A stretch of DNA of 64,000 nt, taken from NCBI RefSeq assembly GCF_009914755.1, contig NC_060930.1; one strand, 5' to 3'. Origin of the DNA: the human T2T-CHM13v2.0 reference genome, Homo sapiens. This document shows positions 25,920 to 61,173 of this stretch, piece by piece. Each line of letters begins with the position of its first letter. Position 1 is the first letter of the stretch. The position numbers and the translations under genes were made by a program. Under the pieces are notes generated by a model. It ran no database searches and was not told the origin of the DNA. It saw only the letters and a list, made by a program, of their open reading frames with translations.

Positions 25920-27420
25920 TGTTCATTTGTTAAGTCATTCTTGCAACAAATACTGACCACTCACAATATACCACATACTGTCCTGGACACTGGAGATACA
26001 ATGGTGAGTAAAAGCGGACAATGTCCCATATGAAATTTAAAGTCTCTTCAAAGGATAGCAATAAAAATACCACATATCAAAAAAAAAGTAGTTAGAATGA
26101 ATAAAACCTACTATTTGCTAGCACAACAGGGTGACTGTAGTCAATAATAAATTAATTGTACATTTTAAAATAACTAAAAGAGTGTAATTGGATTATTTGT
26201 AACAAAAAGAATAAATGCTTGAGGGAATGGAAAAATATCACAAAATTCGATAAAAAGTTGAAATTTGAATTGTATGAGAAAGAAGATATGCGTGGTACTA
26301 GAGAGCTTACAGTAAATAGACTTGGTCTTATTAAGGTGTTCAGGATCCTAAAGTCTGAAGAGTAAGTAAGCTTGAACTTTACAATTTGGAAAATAAAGAA
26401 TATTCCAGATCCAAAGGATGAGGAGCAAAAGGGAAAATGGTGATTAAGAAGGTCTAATTATGGCCAAAGGGATCATGGTGCAAGATGGAGCTGAAACAGC
26501 AGGTAGGCACAAGGCCATTCTGGGTTTGAAAAGTCATTGTAAAAATTTTTTCCTTTTTCTGAGATCAATGGCAAGCCAGTGAAAAGTTTTAGCTGGGGAG
26601 TAGTGAGGTTGAGGGAGCAATGGAGAACATATGACAGAACGTGCAGATGGATTATAGAAGGCCAAGGTGGATTTGGATTGACCAGAGGGGAGGCTTTTTT
26701 TACACCAGCCAAGAGACTGTGGTGGCTGGTTCTACAGGGTTCATAATAAAGACTCAGGAAAAGGAATAGATTTCAGAGCTTATTTAGGAGATAAATTAGC
26801 ATAATTTCATGAGGGATTGAATGTAGCAAGTTTGTTAAAGAAAAGGTAAGTCTCAAGGATGAGCTCAGGTTCCTGGTTTATATAACTTGATAGATATTAG
26901 TTCCCTTCACTGTGACAAGAAACAAAGTCTGGAGGGGAAGATATGAGTTTATTTTTTGACATACTAAATTTGCAGTACACTTGAGACTGGTTGGTAGACA
27001 TATGAAATCAGCTGCTGATTATATGCATCTGTAACTCAAACAAAGGTCTCAGCTAGAGAGATAAATCTGTGGGTTGTCTGAGTGGAGGTGGTGATTGAAG
27101 TTGTGAGTGTAAATGAGATCACCCAGGGAGAGATATAGAGCAAGCAGAGGAAAGGGCTACTAAGCACGGAGCAACAACAACATTTAATGGCCAAGTAGAA
27201 GAAAATGTGCTTCTTAAAGCGACAGAAGCATGGTCTTCACCTGTGACTTGGCCTGGACTCACCCTCACTGGGGCGGAAAGAAGCAACAAATAAAATAGAA
27301 TAAATGAATAAAGAGAGAGGTAGAAAGTAAGAGAGTGTTATATCTGAAAACCATGGAAAATAGTAATATTAAAAGAAAAGAATGGACCAGTAACTTTGAA
27401 GGCTTTTGCAAGATCATCTG
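25920..27420 (-). mobile_element. L2 (long fragment, reverse) interrupted by an L1MA piece
   Basis: GCAACAAATACTGACCACTCAC...CACTGGAGATACAATGGTGAG, GCAAGCCAGTGAAAAGTTTTAG, GAGATCACCCAGGGAGAG. Confidence 0.75.
26088..26232 (+). mobile_element. L1MA2/3-like 3'UTR fragment
   Basis: GCACAACAGGGTGACTGTAGTCAATAATAAATTAATTGTACATTTTAAAATAACTAAAAGAGTGTAATTGGATT. Confidence 0.85.
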
Positions 27421-27538
27421 AAATACTTCACATGGAGCTAGAGAAGAAAGAGGGAATTTCTGACTGCCTCCCTTCCTGTTACAAAGAATTGAGGTGGAGA
27501 TATAAATTACTCTTTTTTTATTACTGGAAAATATTCAT

Positions 27539-27600
27539 TGGATGGATGGATAGATAGACAGACAGACATAGACAGAGATACAGATACAGATATGGATATA
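27539..27600 (+). repeat. Compound GGAT/AGAT/AGAC/GATACA microsatellite
   Basis: Directly visible. Confidence 0.9.
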
Positions 27601-28479
27601 AAACCTAGTCCATTTCTGAATAATTGCTACCCAGGAGACCTTAGGGCTAGACTGAATGAAACTGGGGGATAGGGCTCCACCACTATCTCCAGTTTCATTG
27701 CCAATAGATTGCCCCATAGAGATAGTACTTACATTACTAATACAATATGTAATATATTTATCCAAGGATCATTCATGCTGTCTAAAATAAATTATGGTTG
27801 ATTATATTTCCAAAACTGATAGAAAACCTGCTGTTGTTAATTTCTCAAACACACAGCTATTTCAAGCGGAAAAATTTTCAAATAAAGGAAACTTTTTTTA
27901 GGGTTTTTAAATTTGCTTCATTTGGAAAGTCAACTTATATCCTCAAAATAACTTGAAATTCTTTTCAAACTTGGTTTTAACAAAATATTTTTGTTGCCTC
28001 ATTGGGATTGGAAGAAATGTCTTGTCATTTAAGAAAAAGCTTTAAATTTATGCATACATTTGGAATTAAAATGATTTAAGTAAGAAAATGACTAGATCAC
28101 AAGATCTCAGAGACAGTCTAGAAAGAGGAAAAATTGGGAAGTTGATACTAGATCAGATGCTGTTGCAATAGTCCCAATTTAAAATATTTCTAGTTCTAGA
28201 CATCTACAGTGGGACATGGGAATGGGAAAAAAATCAGTTTCTGGAAATAGGTAGAAAAATTGATATGATGCCAAGACTAAGTAGAAGTGAAGGCATAGAG
28301 TTGAGATTCAGCAAATGTCTCCATTTTGTGGAAGAGGAAATTCAGAGAGATGCGATAATATGTCCCCAAACACTTGTTTAATAAGTTGCAGACCTGGAAT
28401 CTATGCTTTAGACTTCTGACTTCAAATGCAAGGCTTTATCTAATATAAAGCCATAACAAATGCTGTTAGAAAAACAAGT

Positions 28480-28810
28480 TAAATATATAGAAACAGAGAG
28501 TAGAAAGGTTACCAGGGGCAGGGGGGTGGGGGAAACGGAGAGATAAAAGGTCAAAGGGCACAAAGTTTCAATTATGCAAAATGAACTTGTCTAGGAATCT
28601 AACATACAGTATAAAGATGATAGCTAAAAATGTTGTATATTGGAAATTTGCAAAGCGATTAGATTTTTAGGTACTTTTACTACATACATACACGTAAAAG
28701 GTAACTATATGAGATGATATGTTAATTTGTTTGACTGTGGTCATTATTTCATTATGTATATGTATATCAAACATTATGTTGTGTATCATAAATATATACA
28801 ATAAAAAGAG
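28480..28810 (+). mobile_element. L1MA9/10-like 3' end
   Basis: ATAGAAACAGAGAGTAGAAAGGTTACCAGGGG...GGAAATTTGCAAAGCG...GGTAACTATATGAGATGATATGTTAATT. Confidence 0.8.
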
Positions 28811-31252
28811 CTAAAATAAGTAATAAAAATTTCACGGAAGTATGTTCTATGAAACACATTTGATTAAGAAACAAAATGAGTCAGAACTCTCTTTCTGATG
28901 GAAAAGTAGCTTCCTCAAATGAGTCCTTTCTTGTAAAGAACTAGCTAATTACCACTGGCTCTTGATGGAGAATGAAGAGAGTGAGGATGGTCTATCTTGG
29001 GCTAGCGCATGGTACCTGCCTGGCCACACTGAAGATGCACACTCTCAACACAGTTGAACCAGGGTAGGTGGTTGGACTCACACCTGCTGGTTCATGGTTC
29101 CACAGTGAGCTACCATGCTGGAAGAAATGACATAGTGACTATGGATTAACTCATGCCCAAGCCCTCGAACTTCCTATCTAAGGATTTCAGGAAAATAAGA
29201 AAAAGAGCAAAGTTGATCATTTACCTTTTTTTTTTTTTTAAAGCTGAGGGAAAAAGACTGTGAAAAAAGACAAACATCTTGCAAAGAAATAGAAAATGAG
29301 GCCTTTAAACACGTTGTTTATACACCCCAAAGAAATCAGCTCTTATTTCAGTCAGGATCACAGAAGCCTTGGATATATTTTATATTTTCTTTTCAGAAGT
29401 GTAAAAAAATACTTAAAAGTGCATATATAGACTGAACATAGATTTATTGCCAATGACTTTTGTAAGGCGGGTGGATTGAGGCTGCTAATGTAGGTTTATG
29501 AGTACAGCTGGTCCATTTAACAGCAGGTTTATAGGCACTCCTCAAGAGCGGCCCATGTCTGTAGAAGGTATGGTATCACACAGACTGTTGGACAGATGGG
29601 CCCATCTATGGGCAATGCACTATAAACCAACCCATAACTACTGCAGCTGTGACCATAAACCTTTTTAGAAAACAACTAGAAAAATCTGACGTAGAAATGT
29701 TTGCTGTGTTTCCAAATAGAAAGGTGGAACAGGCAAAGTGAGTGCCAAGGCAATGGCTTGGATGAACTTACCACAGACTCAGGTTAAACCAACAAAACCT
29801 ACTTCACTCTCACTCTGCATTGTTTTCATAAACCTCTGTTGAAGGATCAATGGCAACTCATTTTCTGCTTTTAAAATTCTGAGTGCCTGAGACCACTGGT
29901 ATTCCATTGAACACCCAGTATTCCTTGAATAAGTCACTGGGATGTTGGTACTCACCTACAACGTTAGTATAGTGTTTGCTTACATGGGCATACCTTGGAA
30001 GATTTGTCTCCTATGTAATGAAGATACATTTCAAAGCTGAGATTTTTCATCTGTTAAGAAGGCATTTTGCTTTTCCTCTGACATTTTGAAATATTTATTT
30101 TTAAAACAATTTTGTGGAAAGGACCACCAGCAGACGAGTTAAGTGCATTATAGAAATAACTATGACAGGATTTTTGTTTTTGTTTTTTACTAAGGTAGTA
30201 AGAGAGCGAGTATACTTAATTTATAATAAATATGGCTGCTGTCCAAAGCCCCTTGAAGGATAGAACCATCTCTTAACATATTTTTGTATTTTCATGATAC
30301 CAAAAGTTAGAATTTGCAGGGAAGTCATTGTCATTTGGTCAGTATAAGGATTTCATATTAAGATGAGATACACAAATGAAATTTCCTTTACTTACTTATG
30401 TAATACCAACAAAATTTCTCAATTTTCCCTTCTTTTGGTTTATGTTGACCAGTTGCAATTTGTGATGTTTTACATGTTTTTTTAAATTACCTATTAAATA
30501 ATATTTTTAAAATATGTATAAAAACATCTAGATTTTATATGCCATCATATTTATTTGAGAGAAATAAATAGTGATGGGAAATGGTATTGTGTGTATGTGA
30601 GTCAGTATGTGTTTGTGTGCATGTCTGGTCTGTGTGTGTAACCTTATTATGAGACTGACCTGGTCCCTGGTCTCTATCTTTTTTTTTTTTTAGTAATTTA
30701 CTAAATCTGATGAATCTACTTGGGCACATTTTGGGTTGCACTGAGAACATTTTGTGGTTAATTAATATCACTTTGATGAAGGAATCTGTTATTGACTTTA
30801 TAGCATACTATAGTTAGCAAGTATGATTCATTCCTTTTTAAAAGGAGGAGTATTTCTTACATTAGATCCAAATGTTTTTATATTTACCTCTGTAGTTGGT
30901 TCCTTTACTGGACTTGCAAAATAGCTAGTAAGAGGCTTAAATTTCCTATTATCATAGTATTTAGTCAGTTTATAGATTATTTCTGAAGGCTGATTTGATA
31001 TCTTGTACATTGTTGTAGAAGATTACATTACTTGTTCTCAAACAGAATAAATGGGTGTGGGTAAACTCCCATTTTCTCTAGATGACTTTTTAAATTTTGG
31101 TCTTTTTGAACCTAGGTGAGTAGAAATCAGGGAGTACATGAGTATATATTATTTGGAGGAAAATTGGATTTCCCAATGCAGAATAACTAAATCATTTCAA
31201 GATGACTTTTAAAATATTTGAAGAAAATGTAGATGACTACTTACGTGTTTCA

Positions 31253-31551
31253 GAAGAAAATTACACAGAACTATGATTATGTGTCTTTTTCTTCTGAAGA
31301 ATAATTCAAGTGATTTAATGTGATTATGGTTTAGATGAGAAGGGAAGCAAAACAGCCCCAAAATCTGGATAAGCATTTAGCAATAATATGAAAGGTGACC
31401 TAATTCAGAATTGTAAAATGACACCCAGTGGGATATTTATATTAATACAGTGAATAAACGTATGGGATTGGAAATTTCGCATTCAAATAGAAATTTTCAA
31501 GTCACCCAGAAAGGTAACTAGATTTTTTTTTTATTTGAAGAATAAATAATA
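31253..31551 (+). repeat. Long inverted repeat, left arm
   Basis: Reverse complement of 34417-34719. Perfect blocks at 31277-31328 (52 bp) and 31343-31410 (68 bp). Confidence 0.97.
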
Positions 31552-31689
31552 CTACTGTGAAGATGCCTGAAAAATATTCAGGGTCCAAGAAGTCGTCATA
31601 TTCAAAATTATCTCTAGTAAAGTCAACCACTAGAATAAGACTTAAAAAACAATTAAAAATAACTTGTGGAGATTTACATATTTCAAATA

Positions 31690-31880
31690 CTTTAATGTAT
31701 TTTATCTCATTTACTGATTACAATAATCCTTTGAGGTGAGCAGTTCAGGTATTATTCTTCCATTTTGTAAATGAAGAACCTAAGGCCCAAAGAGATTAGC
31801 TGTTTTTCATGTCTCACAGCTAGTAAGAGGTCTACCTTGACCTTCAACACAAGTCTTGAATTAAAATTCACATATTACCT
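31690..31880 (-). mobile_element. MIR inside the inverted-repeat spacer
   Basis: TATCTCATTTACTGATTACAATAATCCTTTGAGGTG...CCATTTTGTAAATGAAGAACCTAAGGCCCAAAGAGATTAG...CACAGCTAGTAAG. Confidence 0.8.
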
Positions 31881-32449
31881 AAGTAGAGGAGGGTAAAAAA
31901 ATCCAATTCCACTCACACTACTGATGATATTACTGTTGCATTGGAAGCTGAAAAAAGAGAGTCTCATAGGAAACAGAATGCAGGACAGTTACATTTATTG
32001 TAAGAGGGCCATTGAAATATGTTGCCATTTATAGCACTGGTTTGGGAGGGAAAAGTTAAGTCACACTCTGGACAGCTGAAGTGAGGAGCTGAATGAGCAC
32101 ATTGGTGATGATGTATGAGATGTTAAGATGAAAGGACCAAAACACGAATGTCACTATTTGACTAGAGCCGGTACCACATGAGTATCAAAGTGAACCAAAG
32201 CAACTGTGGAAAAGAACAACATATATTTCTTTTATTTTTAACTTTCTTATATTTTTAAATGTATAAAATGATGGCTCTTCACTTTAGCAACCTTGGGTCG
32301 AAGATGGAAGAAAAAAACCACATCAGAAGGAACTATTTCATTCAGCCACCACATCTGTTCCAGTACAACTGGACATTCCAAAAATCTTTTGTGCTTGTTC
32401 TATCATGCCAGATATTCTATCTGTTAGAGAAGAGGTCACAATATATTAT

Positions 32450-33995
32450 CTAAAAATCTGACTGTTTAATTTACTTTAACTTTAATTTTTTTGGATTGTT
32501 CAGTGATTACATAATTTGCTGCATATTCCTTTAAGTTTATAATTTAATCTTAGCTCAATTATTTTAAATATAATAATATACTGTGGTTGTTTTCCATTTG
32601 ATAGTATCTTGAAGAAATGTTAAATCGTCCCATCTATATATTTTTCCTATTTCATGATGAGGATTTTGAACTTAATTCTTAGACATAGGGAGCCATAGAT
32701 AATCTTATTTTATTTAATCCTCTTTTCTTTATTTCTTCTGTTTGCTTGCCTTCTTTAACATTGATCAAGTTTTTCCATTCCTTTTTTCTCCCATTATAAT
32801 TTGAAAGCTTTATAGTCTCTTTCTCTATAAGAGATCAGCCTTAATATTTAACATGCTACTGTTCTTAGAAACCCTAAGAACCCTGTGGTTCTTAGAAACC
32901 CTAACGTTTCTCCTAGCCAATAAAGGAACATTGAAGCAGCTTCACTCCAGTTTATTTCCTATATGTAACAGTTATCCAGTATTTTACTTCCATCTTATTT
33001 TTATATACTTCCAAATGAATCATTTAAAAATATATAACCAAATCTTATTTATAATTGTTCAATCATTGACCAATTTTATTTCACATCATTGCTTATTGCA
33101 TTCTATATATTCCTTCTGTGTTAAATTTTCTTCTTAAAATACATTTTAAAAGAGTTTTATTCAGAGGAAACCTTGTCAATTATAAACTCCTTCAGAATCT
33201 TTGTCTCAAAACTCCCTTAGAGTGTTTCCTTTTAAACCCCTCTCTCGAAAACGTTGGTTTATTTGTTTTGCAGTTGTTTTCACTCAGCATGATGACTTGA
33301 TATTCCATTTTCTTCTGACTACATCCTTGTTGAAGAAATCTGCTTTAATCTAATCATTGTTCTTTTGTAAGTAAAGGGTTTTTCTTTTTTTAAAAAAAAG
33401 ATTTTCTAAATTTGTGGTTTTCTGCAATAATTTGTTTAGATGAGGAGTTACTTTTACTTATCATGCTTGGTATAATATTTCTTTAATTTGAGAATTCAAG
33501 CCTTCATCAATTTAGAAAAATTGTCAAGGATCAACTCTTTAAATATTGCCTTCTTCCTATTCTCCTTTTTTTTCTTTCCACATGTAACTTACAAATAGAT
33601 TGTATCTTGTCATTCTATATTCCATATCTCTTAATCTCATTCATGTTTTCCAACTCTTAATCTCTACCTTTTCTGTATTTGGAACAATTTCTTAGTTTTT
33701 TATTTTTTAAAACAAAATTATCTATCTTCCAGTTTAGCAATTTTATTTTACCTGTGTGTATTATTTGATTCTTTTTTAAGTCTGACATTTTTTTTTTTTC
33801 ATGATGCCTTTCGGTTCTTATATAGTTTCAACTTTTCCTTTTGTGTCTTTCATCATTTTAAAAAACACTTATTCTGTATATTCTGTCAAATTATTTCTAT
33901 TATTTCATGCTATTGAGGTCTAAATGTGCTGTTTCTTATGCCTTCTGAATCTTGTTCATGGAAGATTATATCCCTGGATATTTTATTATTCTGAA
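32450..33995 (-). mobile_element. Ancient L1M fragments (reverse) inside the inverted-repeat spacer
   Basis: T-rich, with ATATTCCATTTTCTTCTGACT, GAAGAAATCTGCTTTAATCTAATCATTGTTCTTTTGTAAGTAA and CCTTCATCAATTTAGAAAAATT typical of old L1M. Boundaries approximate. Confidence 0.65.
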
Positions 33996-34416
33996 TTATA
34001 AATCCTATACTATAAGAGTCACAGTATTAGCTCATGAGCTAACCAAGCTGATGCTCAGTTCTCATTTTATCCTAAGCACATAGAGAAACTTACTTTTGGT
34101 GAATTTCAGCTATGTATTTAGATGACGTGTTTTTATTTTATCTTGAATTTCTGTGTGTTGGAGGTGAGTGGGCTTACAGGCTGTCATTATGCCTAGTTAC
34201 ACATGGATGAAAAAGGTATTAAACTTGCTTCGGGTAGAAGCTTTACCTAAATACACAAAACTAGGAAGAATTAAAAGTCAGGTTTTTAATTTTTGTCGTC
34301 AGACTAATGCATTACAGGGATTATTAAGTCATTATTGAATCTCCAAGACAAAAAAATAATGACCCCCAAAGTAAGAATTTGATCAGAATTCAAATGAAGC
34401 CTTGTATTCGTAGTCA

Positions 34417-34719
34417 TATTATTAATTCTTCAAATAAATAAACCATTCTAGTTACTTTCTAGGGTGATTCAAAAATTTCTATTTGAATGAAAAATTTCCA
34501 ATCCCATATGTTTGTTCATTGTATTAATATAAAAGTCCCACTGGGTGTCATTTTACAGTTCTGAATTAGGTCACCTTTCATATTATTGCTAAATGCTTAT
34601 CCAGATTTTGGGGCTGTTTTGCTTCCTTTTCCATATAAATCATAATCACATTAAATCACTTGAATTATTCTTCAGAAGAAAAAGACACATAAGACTCACA
34701 GTTCTATGTAATTTTTTTC
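34417..34719 (-). repeat. Long inverted repeat, right arm
   Basis: Reverse complement of 31253-31551. Perfect blocks at 34641-34692 and 34559-34626. Confidence 0.97.
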
Positions 34720-35599
34720 ATGATTTATCAATTCTCCTTCCTCTGTGGTGTACTTGAAATAAGACTATGAAACTACAAAGTTGGCCCTAAAATAGGAGAT
34801 TTGGTTGCTTCCTGCCTCTTTTGCATCAATAATATGTATTTTATTTCAAGGAAAAAACTTTAGAAGGTTTTCTATAGTAGAGTGACTAATTTACTATCCT
34901 CCTGGGTAGCAGTAATATTCATGCCAAGAAATTATGAACATTTTACATATCTACGGTTTTTGCTCTGGTGGCCCTCCACTTACTAGCAGAATAATGTGGG
35001 AATCACATGAAACAGATGGCCTGTGAATCAGTGTAAATGTACATATAGTATGAAAATAAATGCAGCAAGTGTATGCATATGAATGCACATTTATGAGTAA
35101 ATACTAATAATTGTTAAAAGTACACTATTGGTGTAAATCACAGAAGTGTTCATAAAATAAAAATTCATATAAATTAGATTTACATACAAGGTGATTCTAT
35201 GTAAATGGCTATATAAAGAAAAAATATTCATTTTGTAGATATGATCTAACCCAAGGATTCCAAATCCTTTTGTACTTTACAAATAAAACGAAACTTGGTG
35301 AAATTTAAATTGCAAAGAATTGATTTTTATTGTATTAGTCTTACGTATTTTTTTTAATTTGTCAAATTATAGCATTCCTGTCAGCTGTGCTAAGCTATTT
35401 GGGAGTTATTTGGGTATTAAAAGAAATAAATAGCAACAACAGCAAACCAAGAAGAAATTCAACTTGCTACAGCAGAGAAACAGGACAAAAATTGATAGCC
35501 TGTTTTTGATTTTTAAAACAGGCAATTAAATGAGAGAATGTATTTTTCAAGTCTCATCAGTGTAGCCTTAAAGATTAGGAAAGAGTCCATTTTCTAAGC

Positions 35600-35928
35600 T
35601 TTGGGCCTTACGAAGATTCCTGGGATCGGGAAGAATCAAAAGATCTAACTAGCAGAATATGAGTGAAGTGACCAATTCCATGTCTGATGCATAAAAACAT
35701 CCTACTTGATCCTCCACACTCTTTCTTCCCTGATCTACTGACCAGATGCAGATGATCAGCCGAGGATCCATGAAATTGAAGAATCCACAGTGCTTGAAGA
35801 ACCACGTGATAAACTTCCCATTTATCGGGATATCCATATTGGACTTACATGAGCAAGAAACAGATTGATGGATTTAAGCCACTGAGATTTGGGTCTTTGT
35901 CATATTAGATAGCGTTATATAACTAATA
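35600..35928 (+). mobile_element. MLT1I/J-like MaLR LTR fragment
   Basis: 3' end TTGGACTTACATGAGCAAGAAA...TTAAGCCACTGAGATTTGGG...AACTAATA. Confidence 0.65.
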
Positions 35929-35946
35929 AAAATATGTTAAAAGAAG

Positions 35947-36195
35947 TTTGATAGCACAATTTGATAAGACGACAGGGTGACCATAGTCAATAATAATTTA
36001 ATTATACATTTAAAAATAACTAAAAGAGTATAATTGGATTGTTTGTAATGCAAAGGATAAATGCTTGAGATGATGGTTACCCCATTTACCCTGATGTGAT
36101 TATTGCACATTTTTTGTCTGTATCAAAAACATCTGATATACCCCATAAATACATATACCAACTATGTACCAACAAAAGTTAAAAATTTAAAAATT
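35947..36195 (+). mobile_element. L1MA3-like 3' end
   Basis: CAGGGTGACCATAGTCAATAATAATTTAATT...CCCCATTTACCCTGATGTGATTATT...TACCCCATAAATACATATACC. Confidence 0.88.
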
Positions 36196-36485
36196 TGAAA
36201 GAGGTATTCCAAACCTACATTTCTAGCAATCACAGAGGTTATTTGAAAGATAGCAAATTCTAATTTGCATATAAAAATAACTTATTTTAATAATTGTTTA
36301 GCTGTTAATAAATGAGATAAAAATAAATGCTAAAGATACTTGGCTTTGAGGAATAACGGACTTTTTAGAATAAAATTTTAAGGTAGAAAATCTGAGCATA
36401 TTAACCTAGCAATAAATAAGCTCTCCAGTAACCAAACTAGACCCTGTGATGGGATCATCTGTACAGAGGATGACACTGTATATTT

Positions 36486-37086
36486 TATTAGTTATCTATT
36501 GCTCCATAATAACTTATCCCCAAACTAAGCATCATTTGGGATAATATTATTATCCCAAAACTAAACATTGTATCCCCAAACTAAACATCAAATAAGAAAC
36601 ATTTGTTATCTCACACCGTTTCTGACAGTCAGGAGCTTAGCTAATAGCCTTCATGAGGTTGTTGTCAAGATGGTGGCTGGGTCTACAGTCATCTGCATGC
36701 TCAACCAGGGCTTGACAATCCACTTTCAAGCTCCATGATGGCTGGCAGACCTTAATTCTTCATCTGGTGCACCTCTACCTCTTCAATGGGCTGTGTAACT
36801 GTTCTCATCATGAGATATCTGGCTTCCCCCACAGCACTAATGAGAATGAGGGACAGAGAGAGATGGAGAAAGAATTCTGAGAGAAGCCTCATCGTGAGGA
36901 AAGCCTCATTCCCAGGAAAGCCTCAGTCTTTTGCATCTTAATCTCAGAAGTATATACATCTCTTCTGCCATATTCCACTGGTCATACCAACCAAACCTAG
37001 TGCCATGTGAGAGGGCAACACAGGAGGCTAAGAATACGAGGAGGCAGGGATCACTCAGGGGGCATTTTGGAGGCTGGCTACAGCAT
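36486..37086 (-). mobile_element. MLT1H-like MaLR solo LTR
   Basis: TATTAGTTATCTATTGCT...CATGAGGTTGTTGTCAAGATG...TTCTGCCATATTCCACTGGTCA...TTGGAGGCTGGCTAC. Confidence 0.8.
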
Positions 37087-37381
37087 ACATAATATAACCT
37101 CTTCGATGGTTATGAATATGGAATAACTATCATTAGCATTACAAAAATGTTAAGGTAAAAGCAAATGTTTATTACTTTTTTTTACAAGGAAACACATGTT
37201 CATTTTGAAATAAAGTATTTGAGTAATATAGATGTGCATAAAAATAGGAGACGTCTCCCTGCAATGTCCATCCTGTACCCTACCTGCCTTGGTAGTTTAA
37301 AATTTTCTTTCATCCAGGAGCTTGTTCCTCCAAAAGAGTTTGCAAATGACAGAATATCTTAGAAACAAAGATTTGTTCAAA

Positions 37382-37622
37382 TTATTTATTTATTTCAACT
37401 GATGAATAGAAATTTCACATGTTTATAGTACACAGCATGTTTTGAAATGTGTATAAATTGTGAAATGGTCAATTCGAGCTAATTAACATCTACATTACCT
37501 CACATACTTATCGTTTTGGGGTAAGAACACTCAAAATCTACTCCCAACAATTTTTGAGTGTACAATACATTGTTATTAACTATAGTCAATATGTTGTACA
37601 GTAGATCCCTTGAACTTATTCT
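37382..37622 (-). mobile_element. L1MA6/7-like 3' end
   Basis: GCTAATTAACATCTACATTACCTCACATACTTATC...TACAATACATTGTTATTAACTATAGTCA...TTGAACTTATTC. Confidence 0.85.
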
Positions 37623-38859
37623 TGAGAAATAATTTTTGAGGATACCCATAACTTAACACTATATTACTCGAAATCCTGGAAGTCCAGAGTTGTATTTTAG
37701 GTTCCATTGCTCTTCCAAAACACCTAACACAACAGGGTTTTGCAATAAGAACTCAGAAATATTTGCTGATTTGAAACAAATTCAATGCCAAGAAGTAGAG
37801 AGATGTATTCTCTACACACAAAAGGAGAAAATCATGTGGGTCTTTTTTTATAAAATTGTTTTTCAGTGAATCCATTAAATAATTGGAAATAAAGAAATCC
37901 AGACTCTAAGATATATAGCATGGCCCCATTTAAATGATGCTAAATTAGCTGAAACTTAGGTACTGTAGCTCCCTCAGGACTTTCAAAGAGTTTTGGCTTG
38001 AATACAAGGCTCACAAAATACTATTAGCTGGGGACCTAGGGCATGTTTTCCAAAGGGCTGCTTGGTCCCTATTCATGTAAAACTTTGTTTATCCAGAAGT
38101 CTCATAATGTACATTGCTCGACTCTGTCCACCTTTCTAGCAACCATGACAGAGAAATCTACCTAACTAGTCTTAGTTAACACAATTATAACTTAAATATT
38201 AGTAAACTGTATTTTTCCATTAACCAAACAGTCCAGAATATCACATTTATATACAGAACATCTTTATGGTAAAAATTTGAACTGAACTGTGCCATTTCTG
38301 CTTCGTTTCTTGTCGTAACTATTTCCAACTAAGAAATTCACACACTCCAATCAAAATATTTTTCCTAACAATGGATATTTGTAAGCTTTTATTCCACAAT
38401 ATGAATGAATCCATTAGTTAATTGTAAATTTTACCCTGAAGAAAGGTATCAAGAAAAAGACTTTTATGTATATTTTGGTTTCTCAGAGATATTTTGATAG
38501 GATAGACATTGGTTTTAAAAGGGAATCACTTTGTTTCATGAAAATCTTCCATCCTTTATAGTCAAAGGTGAACATAGCATAGATTCACCAAATAATCTAC
38601 TTCAGTGTGAAATACTTTGGTAGAATATTTGCTGCAGGAAGTTTTAGCAGGTTTAAAGACTCTTATGTCACGAATGTTCTTCTCATTTTATGTCACTCAG
38701 GTATTATGATCAGCATGAAATTTGTGTGTGTTTTTATTAACATATAACTATTATGCATATATAGTATGCAACTGTTGGTTGCCAGCACAAGGGCCATTTT
38801 CCTCATTTTTCTTAACCAACACCATTCTGATTTTTTTCAGATATTTGACAATACTGCAT

Positions 38860-39300
38860 TCAGGGAAGATGCACCCCTTGTCTAAATTTAGGGGATAAAC
38901 CATGACTGTTTTAAGCCAATCCTTGCAATTCATCCTCCTTTGTCAGTGAATGTTCAGGGGGAAAATATGTGATTCATTTCCGGATAATGAGACACAAAGT
39001 AAGTAGGTTATAGGATTTCTAGGGAAATACCTCCTCCCTGATAACAAGAGAGATGTGCAAGGATTAATGTCCTTTTTATTCTTGCTTTGGAGGCAATACT
39101 GAGAGGAAATGATTGAAACTGCTGCTACCAGCTTATGACCGTGAGAGGAAACCAAATTCTCCCTGAGCATTTGACTTCATTAAGCTGCTGAATTAACCAA
39201 CCATGAAGTCCTCTACATTTGGACTTCTTGTTATGTGAGCCAAACACAAATTGATCTTTACTTATTTCACTATTTGCACCCCAAAACATCTTAACTGATA
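38860..39300 (+). mobile_element. MLT1K/J-like MaLR LTR
   Basis: CCATGACTGTTTTAAGCCAATC...ACTGCTGCTACCAGCTTATGACC...GGACTTCTTGTTATGTGAG...CATCTTAACTGATA. Confidence 0.7.
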
Positions 39301-39439
39301 GAACATTAGCCATGTGTATCATTTAAGGGGCTAGTTTTATGCACTTACTTTATTCATCTATACTTGATGGAATTTTGTTTCCATAATTGTTAGCAATGGC
39401 AACTGTGAATAATGTTTAATATCTTGTGAAGACTTTTTA

Positions 39440-39610
39440 TGTTTATATTTTTATGAAGTAGGCAATATTGTCTCCCTTTTACTGATGCCAAAAGAGGGGC
39501 TTACAGAGTAAGTACATCAAAGTTACACAGCTGGTCAGTGCTAGAGCTAAGATTTGCTTCTAGATGTGTTTAACTTCAAAGAGTGTGCTTTTAGTTACCA
39601 TGCTGTACTT
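39440..39610 (-). mobile_element. MIR
   Basis: ATGAAGTAGGCAATATTGTCTCCCTTTTACTGATG...AAAGTTACACAGCTGGTCAGTGCTAGAGC. Confidence 0.7.
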
Positions 39611-41606
39611 CCTCTCTACTGGGCAGTGATGCTGCATAGTATCATCTCACCCTTTCAGGTCTTTGTGTTCTTAATGCACTTCTCTTAGCTATCACTTTTT
39701 AATGTTTCCCTAAATCTTGTTTTCACCCATTATATTTAGAATTTTCTCAAGTAAACAGTGAAGTTGAAATAATTTTATAGTGAATTTACATACTCACCAC
39801 CTAGACTCTGCCATTAACATTTTACTATACTTGTCCAATCAAATATTTTGTGATGTTTTACTGTCAACCCAATCATGCCTTTTAAAACATTTTCTTCTTT
39901 AGTTTTTAGCCGATTTCTAACATAGGCTATATCTGCACATTTTCATTTACAGTGGAGTTGATGATCCCTTGCACGCTCATTTAGTTTTCTAAGATCCAAG
40001 TGTTTTAAGTAGTTATTTGCATATAAATGATAACTTCTCTTTAGTATTTCGCTTCATGTTAGAATAATGTAATGGTGCAATGCTAGCATTAATGATTTAA
40101 AATAGTCATTATTATAACCAGGCCAGGTCTGAATTTGTGAGGTTCAGTATAGAAAGGGGATATGTGATGTCACTATAATAGACTCAGATTGTCTTTCATT
40201 TACGATTATGTTTACACAATGGTTAATAATTGTGTCATTACATACTTACTGAAACAGACAAAAGGCTTATAACATTCCTAAAGTAGTTCTAGTTCAGAGC
40301 ACTCATGCCTATTTTTTCTAATTTTAAGAGTTTAAAGAGGTTACTCTCTTGATTCGCCAGCAAGAAAGTTGTGTTTTTGTGTGAGTGTGTGGGTGTGTGT
40401 GAGTGATGCCACAGTTCTTTGTCTGAGACTCCCCTGTGCCCTCTGCAATATGTTTCTGTTTCTGAACTTCTGGCCAGACGTACTTAGGCCAACAGAATAA
40501 TTCAGCAAAGTTCTTTAATTCAGTTCTAACAGTCCAATTGGGAAATGTAAAAGAAACCAGGTTTGTAGCTTGGGTCTCCAGCCTCCCCTTTCTATTTCCA
40601 TAGCTTCTAGTTTTTTGGTTGCTCATAACTAAAAGCCTTAGGGTGGGCAAGTGGTGATATTTTAAAACTTATTTTTATCTCCCTATCTTCATTCATATAA
40701 ACAAATAGTGATAAGGCTCTTTTATTTTCTAGGCTTAAATATTCCATGTAATAAAGGAAAACGAATGTCTATACCAACTCTTTGATGCACAAGATATTAT
40801 TATCTGGCTTTTAAAGTTTATTATTTGCTGTCTTTTCTCCTAAGGGAAAGCAATGCCTTGTTTTATTGTTCTGTGGTTTCTTTCCTTAATATTAATATTC
40901 TTCGCATTCTTATTGTCCACATAATACAAATATTTTATTATCATTCTCTCTCCTTGCAATGCATTTGCTGATCAATTACATGGTTATCACTTATTTTTCA
41001 TTTTTTTAAACAAATATTTGTTGAACTCTTTTTTTGGGCAAGACACAGTCTGGGACATAGAGATAAAGCTGCCATTAATCCTGTCTTCAAGCAGCTTATA
41101 CCTAATAATATGCATAACTCCTTTCTATTTTATCTCCTTCTTTTATTTAATTCAAAATAGAATTAGTAAAATATATTTGGTAGTAACAGATACTTTTATA
41201 AAGTTGTGGTTTCCTATCCTTTTTCTCCCCCATAATTGGATGGCTTTTTTTTCCCTCTCAACTATTTGATCTGTGTGTGGAAATGGTATTACATATTACA
41301 TGCTACCTTTAAAAATCAAAAACTTGAATAATTCAAGAAACAAGAGCCAACTTGCAGTAAGTCCTGCAAAAGTAAAGTTTTTAAAGTAACGTTGCTTTGG
41401 TGCTTCAAAACCTGCCTGAGGAATGGGACCTGAGATTATCTCATACAGTCAAGGCCGGTAAACATGCTCACACCGTTAGAAAGTGAGAGTCACGTATTAT
41501 AATGAATACCCATAGTATCGTCCATATTTCCTTTACTCCAAAGAAGCGATTCTGCTTGGTGTCATGGGAAGAGCATAGGCTTGTAGTTGTTCAGAAATTG
41601 GTTTGA

Positions 41607-59343: not shown

Positions 59344-60100
59344 AAAGAATAAAAGATAAAAAATCAAAGAAATGTTTGAAGAGGTATTCTGGGGGACTTG
59401 ATCTATTGGTTATTAAAAATGTAATACAGGGCCACATTAACAAGGCAGAGTGGTTTAGATTCAAGAATCAAAAGGCAGATTCAAGAAATAGGAAAAAAAA
59501 CTAGAAACAAGTCCTAATTATGATAAGTATTTTCTATATGACAACAGTACCACTGCAAATAACCATAAGCAAACAAATAAACAAAACTCCAATAAACCAA
59601 ATAAAATCATTAAATAAAAATACAATCGAAAAATCAAATAAATTACAAAGATATATAATGAATGCTGCTGTAACAGTAGATTAAATAAACTATCTTCAAA
59701 TATTATAACCAAACACATTTCAGATAAATTAAAAATTAATGTCAAAAAATAAAATGATACATAATTTATATAAATAATAATATAATTCCAGATTTCAGAA
59801 AAAGAAGTAATCACTAAAGAAGAAAAAAATCAATATAAAAAGCCCAAGCTGTGATACATTAAATCCTTTCATAAGCAAAATTAAGGGATCAGCAATAAAT
59901 TCGAAAAGTATTTTCAGAAAAATGACAAAGGGTTATGTCATTAAATAGAGCTCATGCCAACCAGTAAGTTTGCCAATAGGAAAGAGGTCCAAGTGTTTCT
60001 AAATAAGAGCTCACAGATGAGGAAAATATTTGTGACTACTAAATATAATAAAACATGTTACCAACTTAAAATGAGATATCACTTTGTCTGCTGGATTAGT
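59344..60100 (+). mobile_element. Ancient L1M ORF2 fragment whose first ~100 bp are duplicated at 60223-60323
   Basis: GGGGGACTTGATCTATTGGTTATTAAAAATGTAATACAGGGC...CAGAGTGGT and ATGACAAAGGGTTATGTC...AATGAGATATCACTTT. Confidence 0.6.
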
Positions 60101-61173
60101 GAGGACAAGGGGATATACAATGGGATTTCACACATCCTCCATCCCACCCGCCAGCCCAACCCTATACTAGACGGGTTTGCTCACCCAACTTCCCTTCCGA
60201 GACCATAGTCTGAGAATAATAGAAAGAATAAAGGATAAAAAATCAAAGAAATGCTTGAAGAGGTATTCTGGGGGGCTTGCTTTACTGGTTATTAAAAATG
60301 TAATACAGAGCTACAATAACAAGCTACTCTTCAAGTACAGGGAAGAGACAGAGAACAAGTATCCTTTTATAAGAGCAGATTCATTGCTGTGTTAATGTTT
60401 TGCTGTGAGCCTGGGTCTGGAGGAGCTGTTTTTCTTGATTCCCTCCTATTTTGCAGGATTGCAATGCTACTGGAGATCCCTCTTTGACCCCAGGACTAGG
60501 ATGGAGAGAAAAAAATAAAACTGAGATAGTGGGAAGGGGAGGATGACTCTCTAATGTCTGTCTGAGATAGCCTCAGTATGCACAGTTGGTCATTTAGAAG
60601 GAAAGTAAAGAGGTGTTTTGTATCATGCTGTGAGCCACATGTGTATGTCAGGTTGTCTAATCCGATGATGTTCTTTTGAGTAGTGGACTAGTAGGACATA
60701 AAGGATGGTTAAGGGGTTGGTTATATTAGCAGAACTTGTCCAAAATAGTAATGCAGGATGTAAATGAGAGAATATTGAGATAGTCACTCTAATACTGACA
60801 CTGATGACAGTTCTAATTGATACAAGCTTTCTATAAAGCATTTAAAGTACCAAGAGTCTTACATTTTTAAAAATATCTTCTTTGACCCCCTAACTACATT
60901 TCTTAGTATTACTCATTGACCACACTTTTGAAAAGCACCACTTTATGACAGGCAAAGGAGATGACAGATACAGCAATTAACAAGGCAGTCCAGGTACTTG
61001 TTCTTATGGTACTTTCATTCTAGTGGGGCCAAGAGAGAATAGACAATAACCATGTACATAAACAAATAAGTAAGATATTATAGAAAGTGACATGTAGAGT
61101 GAAGAAAATAAATTGGAGTAATATGTTAAAGAGTGACCAGGGGTTGTCAGGGACACTCTCTTTGAAGAGGTGA

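What the first reader, a model, noticed from the sequence alone, without database searches (positions are those of the whole stretch)
31253..34719. Unexplained ~300-bp inverted repeat with a homogenised core around 2.9 kb of ancient repeats
Seen: 31253-31551 is the reverse complement of 34417-34719. Over 31277-31477 I count 11 mismatches in 201 bp (~94.5% identity), with perfect 52-bp and 68-bp blocks. Identity decays and indels appear toward both edges. The arms do not resemble Alu, L1, L2, MIR, LTR or any MITE I recognise. Established: the spacer holds MIR and L1M relics, which stopped inserting early in eutherian evolution, so TIRs of a transposon that old should be far more diverged than this. 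Inference: the arms are either a more recent inverted templated duplication, or an old pair kept alike by arm-to-arm gene conversion (as expected for a recurrently flipping inversion) or by selection for an RNA duplex.
Basis: partly seen in the sequence, partly recalled or inferred. Interest (0 to 1): 0.85.

Follow-up and report, generated by a model that had tools for sequence, protein, structure and literature searches.

The report
Single-pair 310-bp inverted duplication
Two 310-base copies of an otherwise unique human sequence face each other across 2.9 kb of old DNA, most likely a harmless scar of a small primate-era inversion or inverted duplication rather than a transposon or an active genetic switch.

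Summary
The inverted repeat is real. 31253-31561 (+) matches 34407-34719 (-) at 89.5% over 314 columns, E 2e-96. In the T2T genome the arm sequence was found only at these two places. I found no target-site duplication and no transposase relic. The spacer holds two old multicopy relics, 60-79% identical to their paralogues. The arms are therefore younger than what they enclose. Arm divergence (K2P 0.08-0.09) falls between the recalled human-macaque and human-marmoset divergences.

The anatomy fits a known kind of structure. This is an inverted duplication of unique sequence made together with an inversion by staggered breaks or template switching (Ranz 2007, median 321 bp).

Divergence is uneven. 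The outer half has 5 mismatches in 134 bp, all within 14 bp. The inner half has 15 in 140 bp plus indels. This is suggestive of one conversion patch, but p ranges from 0.0007 to 0.11 depending on treatment.

The longest identical tract is 68 bp, which makes the pair a poor substrate for recurrent flipping. A T2T inversion call set has no entry here. No primate genomes, Dfam or pangenome data were available, so the polarity and timing are untested. Interest is low.

The parts
31253..31561 (+). Left arm of the inverted repeat (309 bp, 29.8% GC)
   Evidence: blastn 89.5% over 314 columns to the right arm, E 2e-96; alignment; unique in the genome apart from its partner.
34407..34719 (-). Right arm of the inverted repeat (313 bp, 28.4% GC), reverse complement of the left arm
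   Evidence: It is the second and only other genome match, at 90% identity, E 5.6e-111.
31562..34406 (.). 2845-bp spacer with old interspersed-repeat relics, possibly inverted relative to its ancestral orientation (untested)
   Evidence: Weak multicopy hits at 31695-31827 and 33433-33666, 71-86% identity. An old LINE-like relic at 33020-33903 is colinear with L010/L011 at 60-67%. No Pfam domain reaches its cut-off in the 17 ORFs scanned.
31277..31410 (+). Low-divergence outer half of the arm: perfect 52-bp and 68-bp blocks around a 5-mismatch cluster at 31329-31342. Partner is 34559-34692.
   Evidence: 5 mismatches in 134 bp, K2P 0.039, against 15 in 140 plus 3 gaps, K2P 0.116, for 31411-31551. 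Fisher p 0.035, or 0.0004 if the cluster counts as one event.
31249..31298 (+). 50-nt quasi-palindrome at the outer end of the left arm. The homology boundary lies at the base of its stem.
   Evidence: 22-nt arms, 86% complementary, 6-nt loop. DNA fold -14.2 kcal/mol, z -4.33; the right-arm homologue folds at -4.5 kcal/mol, z 0.25.

Best explanation
This is a one-off inverted duplication of about 310 bp of otherwise unique sequence. It was made and fixed in the primate lineage, roughly around the catarrhine stem, and has been decaying since without a function.

The most likely origin is a single event that also inverted the ~2.9-kb segment between the arms. In the staggered-break model, breaks at one breakpoint leave a ~310-nt overhang. 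The overhang is filled in and the inverted fragment is rejoined. The breakpoint sequence then sits at both ends of the inverted segment, in opposite orientation. A replication template switch would give the same product.

The uneven divergence along the arms is most simply one later short arm-to-arm gene-conversion patch over 31277-31410, or chance plus one clustered mutation.

Shown: the repeat, its uniqueness in this genome, its youth relative to the enclosed repeats, and the absence of transposon hallmarks.

Inferred: the coupling to an inversion, the date, neutrality, and the conversion patch.
For: - The arm matches only itself and its partner in the 3.1-Gb assembly, at E<=0.001 and at E<=10. 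There is no third copy in the window.
- The flanks 29253-31252 and 34720-35930 are unique, apart from a short multicopy stretch at about 30584-30641.
- The arms are about 91-92% identical, K2P 0.082-0.094. The enclosed repeats are 60-79% identical to their paralogues. So the duplication postdates them.
- No direct repeat of 5 nt or more was found at any of 90 boundary combinations. No transposase domain was found in 17 of 26 stop-to-stop ORFs.
- The size and anatomy match inversion-coupled inverted duplications of unique sequence. In passages of Ranz 2007, 17 of 29 Drosophila inversions carry them. The median is 321 bp and the range 46 bp to 1.9 kb. For 12 inversions only one breakpoint's sequence is duplicated.
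- The same reading has been applied to human X/Y strata, with gene conversion between one such pair (Lemaitre 2009 passages).
- Human polymorphic inversions carry breakpoint duplications of up to 980 bp (Giner-Delgado 2019 Supplementary Data 1).
- The other long inverted pairs in the window involve sequences that recur several times within it. This pair occurs only twice.
Against: - The orientation of the spacer relative to the ancestral state could not be tested. No primate or other mammalian genomes were available. No old repeat is split across a breakpoint to give internal proof.
- Divergence is not uniform along the arms. A single neutral event alone does not predict that, so a second process or chance has to be added.
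- The genome search has limited reach for old families. The MIR-like piece of the spacer recovered only 5 other loci. A low-copy ancient family at about 70% identity could have been missed. Dfam/RepeatMasker could not be run.
- The staggered-break model is best documented in Drosophila. A 310-nt overhang is long.
Confidence: 0.6

Rival explanations
1. This is an older inverted pair, of early-primate age or before, kept alike by repeated arm-to-arm gene conversion. It may also undergo occasional NAHR flipping of the 2.9-kb spacer.
For: - Divergence is uneven. The outer half 31277-31410 has K2P 0.039 with perfect 52- and 68-bp blocks. The inner half 31411-31551 has K2P 0.116 plus 3 indels.
- P(longest run >=68) is 0.005 to 0.04. 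P(sum of the top two runs) is 0.0007 to 0.006 with all events counted. The scan permutation gives p 0.0175.
- Closely spaced repeats can recombine through matching tracts under 50 bp. The alpha-globin case is cited in Gu 2008 passages.
Against: - With CpG and poly-T events removed, the run tests weaken to p 0.11 and 0.036. Outer versus inner Fisher is only 0.035 when the cluster counts as 5 events.
- Homology ends sharply. No fainter inverted homology extends beyond 31561/34407 or 31253/34719 in a word-7 blastn. An old wide pair with a converted core would be expected to leave some.
- The arms are 310 bp at ~91%, with a longest identical tract of 68 bp. That is below the 134-232 bp (cell culture) and 300-500 bp (human meiosis) processing segments.
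- NAHR inversions in the 45-inversion set had IRs of 654 bp or more at 93.7% or more. Alu pairs of 250-297 bp at 83-86% were classed as non-homologous.
- The T2T call set has no inversion entry at 134.25-134.28 Mb.
Confidence: 0.17
2. These are the terminal inverted repeats of an ancient low-copy DNA transposon (a long-TIR element or MITE), and the spacer is its interior.
For: - The geometry fits: two ~300-bp inverted ends around a 2.9-kb interior.
- The genome search could miss a small, very old family, given that only 5 MIR-like hits were recovered.
- No repeat library could be consulted.
Against: - Both of the 2 genome matches are the arms themselves, even at E<=10.
- No target-site duplication of 5 nt or more was found.
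- No transposase-like domain was found in the ORFs scanned.
- The interior carries other old repeats. TIRs of that age should be about as diverged as those repeats, not 91% alike. This reading still needs conversion on top.
Confidence: 0.05
3. The pair is functionally constrained. The arms either form a long RNA duplex when transcribed, or each carries a duplicated regulatory element in 31277-31410 held by purifying selection.
For: - There are two perfect blocks of 52 and 68 bp in a ~9% diverged background.
- A 300-bp near-perfect duplex would form if one transcript spanned both arms. This follows from the sequence.
Against: - No gene or functional element is annotated here in the hub annotation. 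LINC00326 starts about 12 kb downstream.
- No Rfam family matches in 30000-36000, apart from a chance-level U4 hit outside the arms.
- Substitutions do not favour pairing. Transitions split 13 to 7 (p 0.26), and 10 transversions and 4 indels break the duplex.
- The arms do not fold unusually on their own (z 1.57 and -0.47).
Confidence: 0.06

Closest known systems
Inversion-coupled inverted duplications (isochromatid or chromatid staggered-break model; Ranz et al. 2007, PMC1885836, passages read)
   Same: Inverted copies of ancestrally unique, non-repetitive sequence sit exactly at the two ends of a segment. The size (~310 bp) is close to their median of 321 bp and within the 46 bp to 1.9 kb range. 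Sequence from only one breakpoint is duplicated, as in 12 of their inversions. Duplicate identity (~91%) is comparable to their 88% +/- 5.4%.
   Different: Their cases are Drosophila inversions polarised with outgroups. Here the inversion of the spacer is inferred, not shown. The segment is only about 3 kb and lies in a gene-poor human region.
Inverted duplicates read as inversion footprints on human sex chromosomes (Lemaitre et al. 2009, PMC2817401, passages read)
   Same: A human example in which a pair of inverted duplicates flanking a segment is taken as the scar of one inversion. One such pair shows later gene conversion.
   Different: Those inversions are large and tied to X-Y strata. 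This one is autosomal, tiny and has no known consequence.
NAHR-mediated recurrent ('toggling') inversions flanked by inverted repeats (Giner-Delgado 2019 Supplementary Data 1; Porubsky 2021 preprint passages)
   Same: An inverted-repeat pair brackets a few-kb segment. HsInv0040 and HsInv0061 have IRs made of 'unique sequence + several TEs' around 1.7-3.6 kb.
   Different: Those IRs are 654 bp or more at 93.7-99.9% identity. Of 32 recurrent autosomal and X inversions, 23 have flanking repeats of 10 kb or more. Here the arms are 310 bp at ~91% with no identical tract over 68 bp, and no inversion is called at this place.
Large palindromes with arm-to-arm gene conversion (Y and X chromosome palindromes; from recall, mentioned passages)
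   Same: Inverted arms around a spacer, with conversion between arms as the homogenising force.
   Different: Palindrome arms are tens to hundreds of kb at over 99.9% identity. This pair is three orders of magnitude shorter and about 9% diverged.

Membership tests
DNA transposon / MITE with terminal inverted repeats | Multiple related copies elsewhere in the genome | tested here: not met
   Both of the 2 matches in the 3.1-Gb assembly are the two arms, at E<=0.001 and E<=10. Caveat: the first-look filter recovers few copies of very old families, and no Dfam search was possible.
DNA transposon / MITE with terminal inverted repeats | Target-site duplication directly outside the two ends | tested here: not met
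   Over 90 boundary combinations, only one 4-nt match (TTCA) and none of 5 nt or more.
DNA transposon / MITE with terminal inverted repeats | Transposase coding relic in the interior (autonomous elements only) | tested here: not met
   17 of 26 stop-to-stop ORFs (those of 49 aa or more) were scanned against Pfam. All hits were far below the curated cut-offs and none was a transposase. Non-autonomous elements would lack one anyway.
Inversion-coupled inverted duplication (staggered-break footprint) | Duplicated sequence is otherwise unique and non-repetitive | tested here: met
Inversion-coupled inverted duplication (staggered-break footprint) | Copies in inverted orientation at the two ends of one segment, with size in the reported range (46 bp to 1.9 kb) | tested here: met
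   309/313-bp arms, 2845 bp apart. Range taken from Ranz 2007 passages.
Inversion-coupled inverted duplication (staggered-break footprint) | Enclosed segment is inverted relative to the ancestral (outgroup) order, and the outgroup has one copy of the duplicated sequence | not testable with these tools
   No primate or mammalian genomes are held. The internal proxy (an old repeat split across a breakpoint) found nothing. The relic at 33020-33903 lies wholly inside the spacer and the flanks are unique.
NAHR-competent inverted repeat / recurrent inversion locus | Long, highly identical flanking repeats with an uninterrupted identity tract at or above the minimal efficient processing segment | tested here: not met
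   310 bp, ~91%, longest perfect tracts 68 and 52-54 bp. Compare 134-232 bp in cell culture and 300-500 bp in human meiosis (Gu 2008). Exceptions under 50 bp exist for closely spaced repeats (same passage).
NAHR-competent inverted repeat / recurrent inversion locus | Both orientations of the enclosed segment found among humans or primates | tested here: inconclusive
   No entry starting 13425/13426/13427 among the chr6 rows of the T2T inversion call set (Porubsky 2023 supplement, uncut file). None near chr6:133 Mb (hg18) among 45 inversions. Larger pangenome and primate call sets could not be read, because supplements closed.
Segmental duplication (conventional definition, recalled: 1 kb or more at 90% or more) | Length of 1 kb or more | tested here: not met
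   Homology ends at 31253/34719 and 31561/34407 in a word-7 blastn.

The most novel reading that the evidence does not exclude
The pair is not an inert scar. It would be a small autosomal palindrome whose outer 134 bp is kept identical by ongoing arm-to-arm conversion or by selection. The 2.9-kb spacer would flip between orientations in primates or in human haplotypes. Alternatively, a transcript through both arms would make a ~300-bp dsRNA hairpin. That would put recombinational homogenisation at a repeat length and identity well below those of known toggling loci.
Probability: 0.07. Interest if true: 0.5.

Novelty: new member of a known kind. Interest (0 to 1): 0.2.

Why it matters
If the best reading holds, this is one more small fixed rearrangement scar in a gene-poor part of 6q23. 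It is useful mainly as a dated example that inversion-coupled inverted duplications also occur in primates. It also shows that a 300-bp inverted pair around old repeats has a known explanation. It would matter more only if comparative or pangenome data showed concerted evolution or flipping at such short, diverged arms.

Tried and rejected
1. Earlier findings of this scan were not open to the session.
2. Rfam over 30000-36000 gave only a chance-level U4 match outside the arms: 18.2 bits against a gathering score of 46, E 0.79.
3. I built a sequence-only model of the two arms (R1) to look for remote copies. This genome does not accept a model as query, so the search was not done.
4. I looked for a local template-switch donor for the 5-mismatch cluster at 31329-31342. 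Within +/-300-400 bp there were only self-matches and one 9-mer. Rejected.
5. I looked for split old repeats as internal proof of an inversion. The LINE-like relic lies wholly within the spacer and the flanks are unique. Uninformative.
6. Transposon hallmarks (TSD, transposase, copies) were absent.
7. RNA-duplex selection was tested through wobble-compatible transitions: 13 to 7, p 0.26.
8. Literature. No paper holds both 'LINC00326' and 'inversion'. Aguado 2014 main text has no chr6, 6q23 or 133 hits. Giner-Delgado 2019 Supplementary Data 1 lists five chr6 inversions in part 1 of 2, none near this place. The Porubsky 2023 T2T call set has none.
Primate inversion lists that may bear on this locus were therefore not seen.
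10. hg38 and hg19 coordinates of the locus were not derived, so call sets on those builds were not checked.
Full report
**Observation**

- The repeat finder reports ungapped arms 31277-31532 and 34437-34692: 256 nt, 91% complementary, 2904 nt apart.
- A sensitive self-blastn of 26000-40000 gives 31253-31561 against 34719-34407: 89.49% over 314 columns, 27 mismatches, 4 gap openings, E 2.15e-96.
31277-31477 has 11 mismatches in 201 aligned bases (94.5%), with perfect blocks of 52 and 68 bp.
- The edges are more diverged, with indels.
- Homology ends sharply. The same blastn found no fainter inverted similarity outside or inside the arms.

**Copy number and transposon hallmarks**

- Searching the whole assembly with the left arm gives two matches, the arm itself and its partner. 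This holds at E<=0.001 with the 299-bp query and at E<=10 with a 244-bp query.
- A word-7 blastn of the arm against all 64 kb finds no third copy. Apart from the arm's own small palindrome (E 2e-5), everything else is E>=0.05 noise.
- No direct repeat of 5 nt or more flanks the pair at any of 90 boundary combinations.
- Of 26 stop-to-stop ORFs of 40 aa or more overlapping 31253-34719, I scanned the 17 of 49 aa or more against Pfam. Nothing reached a curated cut-off and nothing was transposase-like.
- Caveat on sensitivity. The genome tool scores only candidates from a loose first look. It recovered only 5 other loci for the MIR-like stretch of the spacer, so a small and very old family could be missed. 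Dfam/RepeatMasker was not available.

**What lies between and around the arms**

- The spacer has two stretches with weak multicopy matches. One is 31695-31827, at 73-76% to 5 loci. The other is 33433-33666, at 71-86% to 6 loci.
- Aligning six of those loci back to the window shows an old relic colinear over 33031-33682 and 33794-33903 with L010 (60-68%). It also aligns in three colinear pieces with L011.
- By eye and from recall, the first stretch resembles MIR and the second the 3' part of an old L1. No library confirmed the names.
- The flanks are unique in the genome. This covers 29253-31252, except a short multicopy stretch at about 30584-30641, and 34720-35930.
- Every other inverted pair of 100 nt or more in the window involves sequences that recur several times within it and coincide with the masked stretches. 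This pair occurs only twice.

**Age**

- Two paralogues in one genome diverge like two species that split at the time of duplication.
- From recall, human-macaque divergence is about 6-6.5% and human-marmoset about 10-11%. That places the duplication, or the last full homogenisation, roughly between those splits, some tens of millions of years ago.
- The enclosed repeats are 60-79% identical to their paralogues. The arms are clearly younger than what they bracket, so they cannot be undisturbed TIRs of an element that old.

**Uneven divergence**

- The outer half 31277-31410 has 5 mismatches in 134 bp, all within 31329-31342 (K2P 0.039).
- The inner half 31411-31551 has 15 mismatches in 140 bp plus 3 gap events (K2P 0.116).
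- Random placement of the same number of events gives the following results.
- P(longest perfect run >= 68) is 0.005 for bounds 31250-31561 (34 events).
  - P(sum of the two longest runs) is 0.0007 to 0.006.
  - A scan for a low-divergence segment gives p 0.0175 over 400 permutations.
- After dropping events at the two CpGs and in the poly-T run, the figures weaken to 0.11 and 0.036.
- Fisher's test of outer against inner half is 0.035. It is 0.0004 if the cluster is one event.
- The boundaries of the halves were chosen after looking at the data.
- My reading is that heterogeneity is probable but not proven. It fits one conversion patch of about 130 bp, or constraint, or chance plus a multi-nucleotide mutation.
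- I found no local template-switch donor for the cluster.

**Mechanism**

The anatomy is a ~310-bp inverted duplication of unique sequence at the two ends of a segment. It has sharp homology ends and no TSD.
- This is what the staggered-break model of inversion predicts. Ranz et al. 2007 found such duplications at 17 of 29 Drosophila inversions. The median was 321 bp and the range 46 bp to 1.9 kb. For 12 inversions, sequence from only one breakpoint was duplicated. Mean duplicate identity was 88% (passages).
- Lemaitre et al. 2009 read inverted duplicates on the human Y in the same way. They noted gene conversion within one pair (passages).
- Human polymorphic non-homologous inversions carry breakpoint duplications of up to 980 bp (Giner-Delgado 2019 Supplementary Data 1).
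- A replication template switch would give the same product.
- I could not show that the spacer is inverted relative to its ancestral orientation.

A possible mechanistic hint sits at the outer boundary.
- The outer homology boundary (about 31250-31253) lies at the base of a 22-bp-stem quasi-palindrome, 31249-31298.
- It folds strongly in the left arm (-14.2 kcal/mol, z -4.33; none of 200 shuffles fold as well).
- It folds weakly in the right arm (-4.5 kcal/mol, z 0.25).
- This was noticed after the fact and is only a lead.

**Against active flipping or function**

- The longest identical tracts are 68 and 52-54 bp.
- Gu et al. 2008 summarise processing segments of 134-232 bp in cultured cells and 300-500 bp in human meiosis. 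They note exceptions under 50 bp for closely spaced repeats (passages).
- In the 45-inversion set, NAHR inversions have IRs of 654 bp or more at 93.7% or more. Alu pairs of 250-297 bp at 83-86% were classed as non-homologous.
- Repeat length is the main predictor of recurrence, and 23 of 32 recurrent autosomal and X inversions have repeats of 10 kb or more (preprint passages).
- The T2T-coordinate inversion call set has no entry beginning 13425, 13426 or 13427 among its chr6 rows. The file was not cut.
- No paper holds both 'LINC00326' and 'inversion'.
- For the RNA-duplex idea, transitions split 13 to 7 for wobble compatibility (p 0.26). Ten transversions and four indels disrupt pairing. Rfam finds nothing in the arms. 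Nothing is annotated here in the hub annotation.

**Limits**

No non-human genomes, repeat library, pangenome haplotypes, conservation tracks or expression data were available. Supplements of the ape-genome paper could not be opened. Polarity, timing, orientation polymorphism and constraint are therefore open.

**Verdict**

The finding is real and correctly described, but it has an ordinary and already-described explanation. I put 0.6 on a one-off primate-age inverted duplication, most likely an inversion footprint. I put 0.17 on an older pair kept alike by conversion, 0.06 on functional constraint and 0.05 on a transposon. The remainder is unassigned. Interest is 0.2.

Noticed in passing
window 31249-31298 (and homologue 34671-34722): A 50-nt quasi-palindrome sits at the outer end of the arm. 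It is strong in the left arm (-14.2 kcal/mol, z -4.33) and degraded in the right arm (z 0.25). The outer homology boundary falls at the base of its stem. This may hint at a hairpin-associated break or template switch.
   Followed up: partly
window 31329-31342 / 34627-34640: Five mismatches fall within 14 bp, between perfect 52-bp and 68-bp blocks. This looks like a single multi-nucleotide event or patchy conversion. No local template-switch donor was found.
   Followed up: partly
window 35959-36196 and 26074-26230: A ~235-bp high-copy interspersed repeat gave 3698 first-look candidates, with 40 scored at 82-88% identity. It has a direct partner 9.8 kb upstream at 79-84%. The family was not named.
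   Followed up: no
window 29492-29662: A ~170-bp stretch is its own reverse complement at 64.8% over 176 columns, E 2e-10. It may be an old palindromic element.
   Followed up: no
window 35466-35600 (-): A full-length but very weak U4 snRNA match: 18.2 bits against a gathering score of 46, E 0.79. It is chance, or a badly decayed snRNA pseudogene.
   Followed up: no
window 30584-30641: A short stretch matches several loci at 78-85%, including four overlapping hits within about 500 bp on C8 at about 142.469 Mb. It looks like a minisatellite or low-complexity motif.
   Followed up: no
window 59344-59444 and 60223-60323: A 101-nt direct repeat at 91% identity, spaced 879 bp apart, inside LINC00326.
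   Followed up: no
window 32862-32906: A local tandem duplication inside the spacer. A ~17-nt motif (gttcttagaaaccctaa) occurs twice, 26 nt apart, seen by eye.
   Followed up: no
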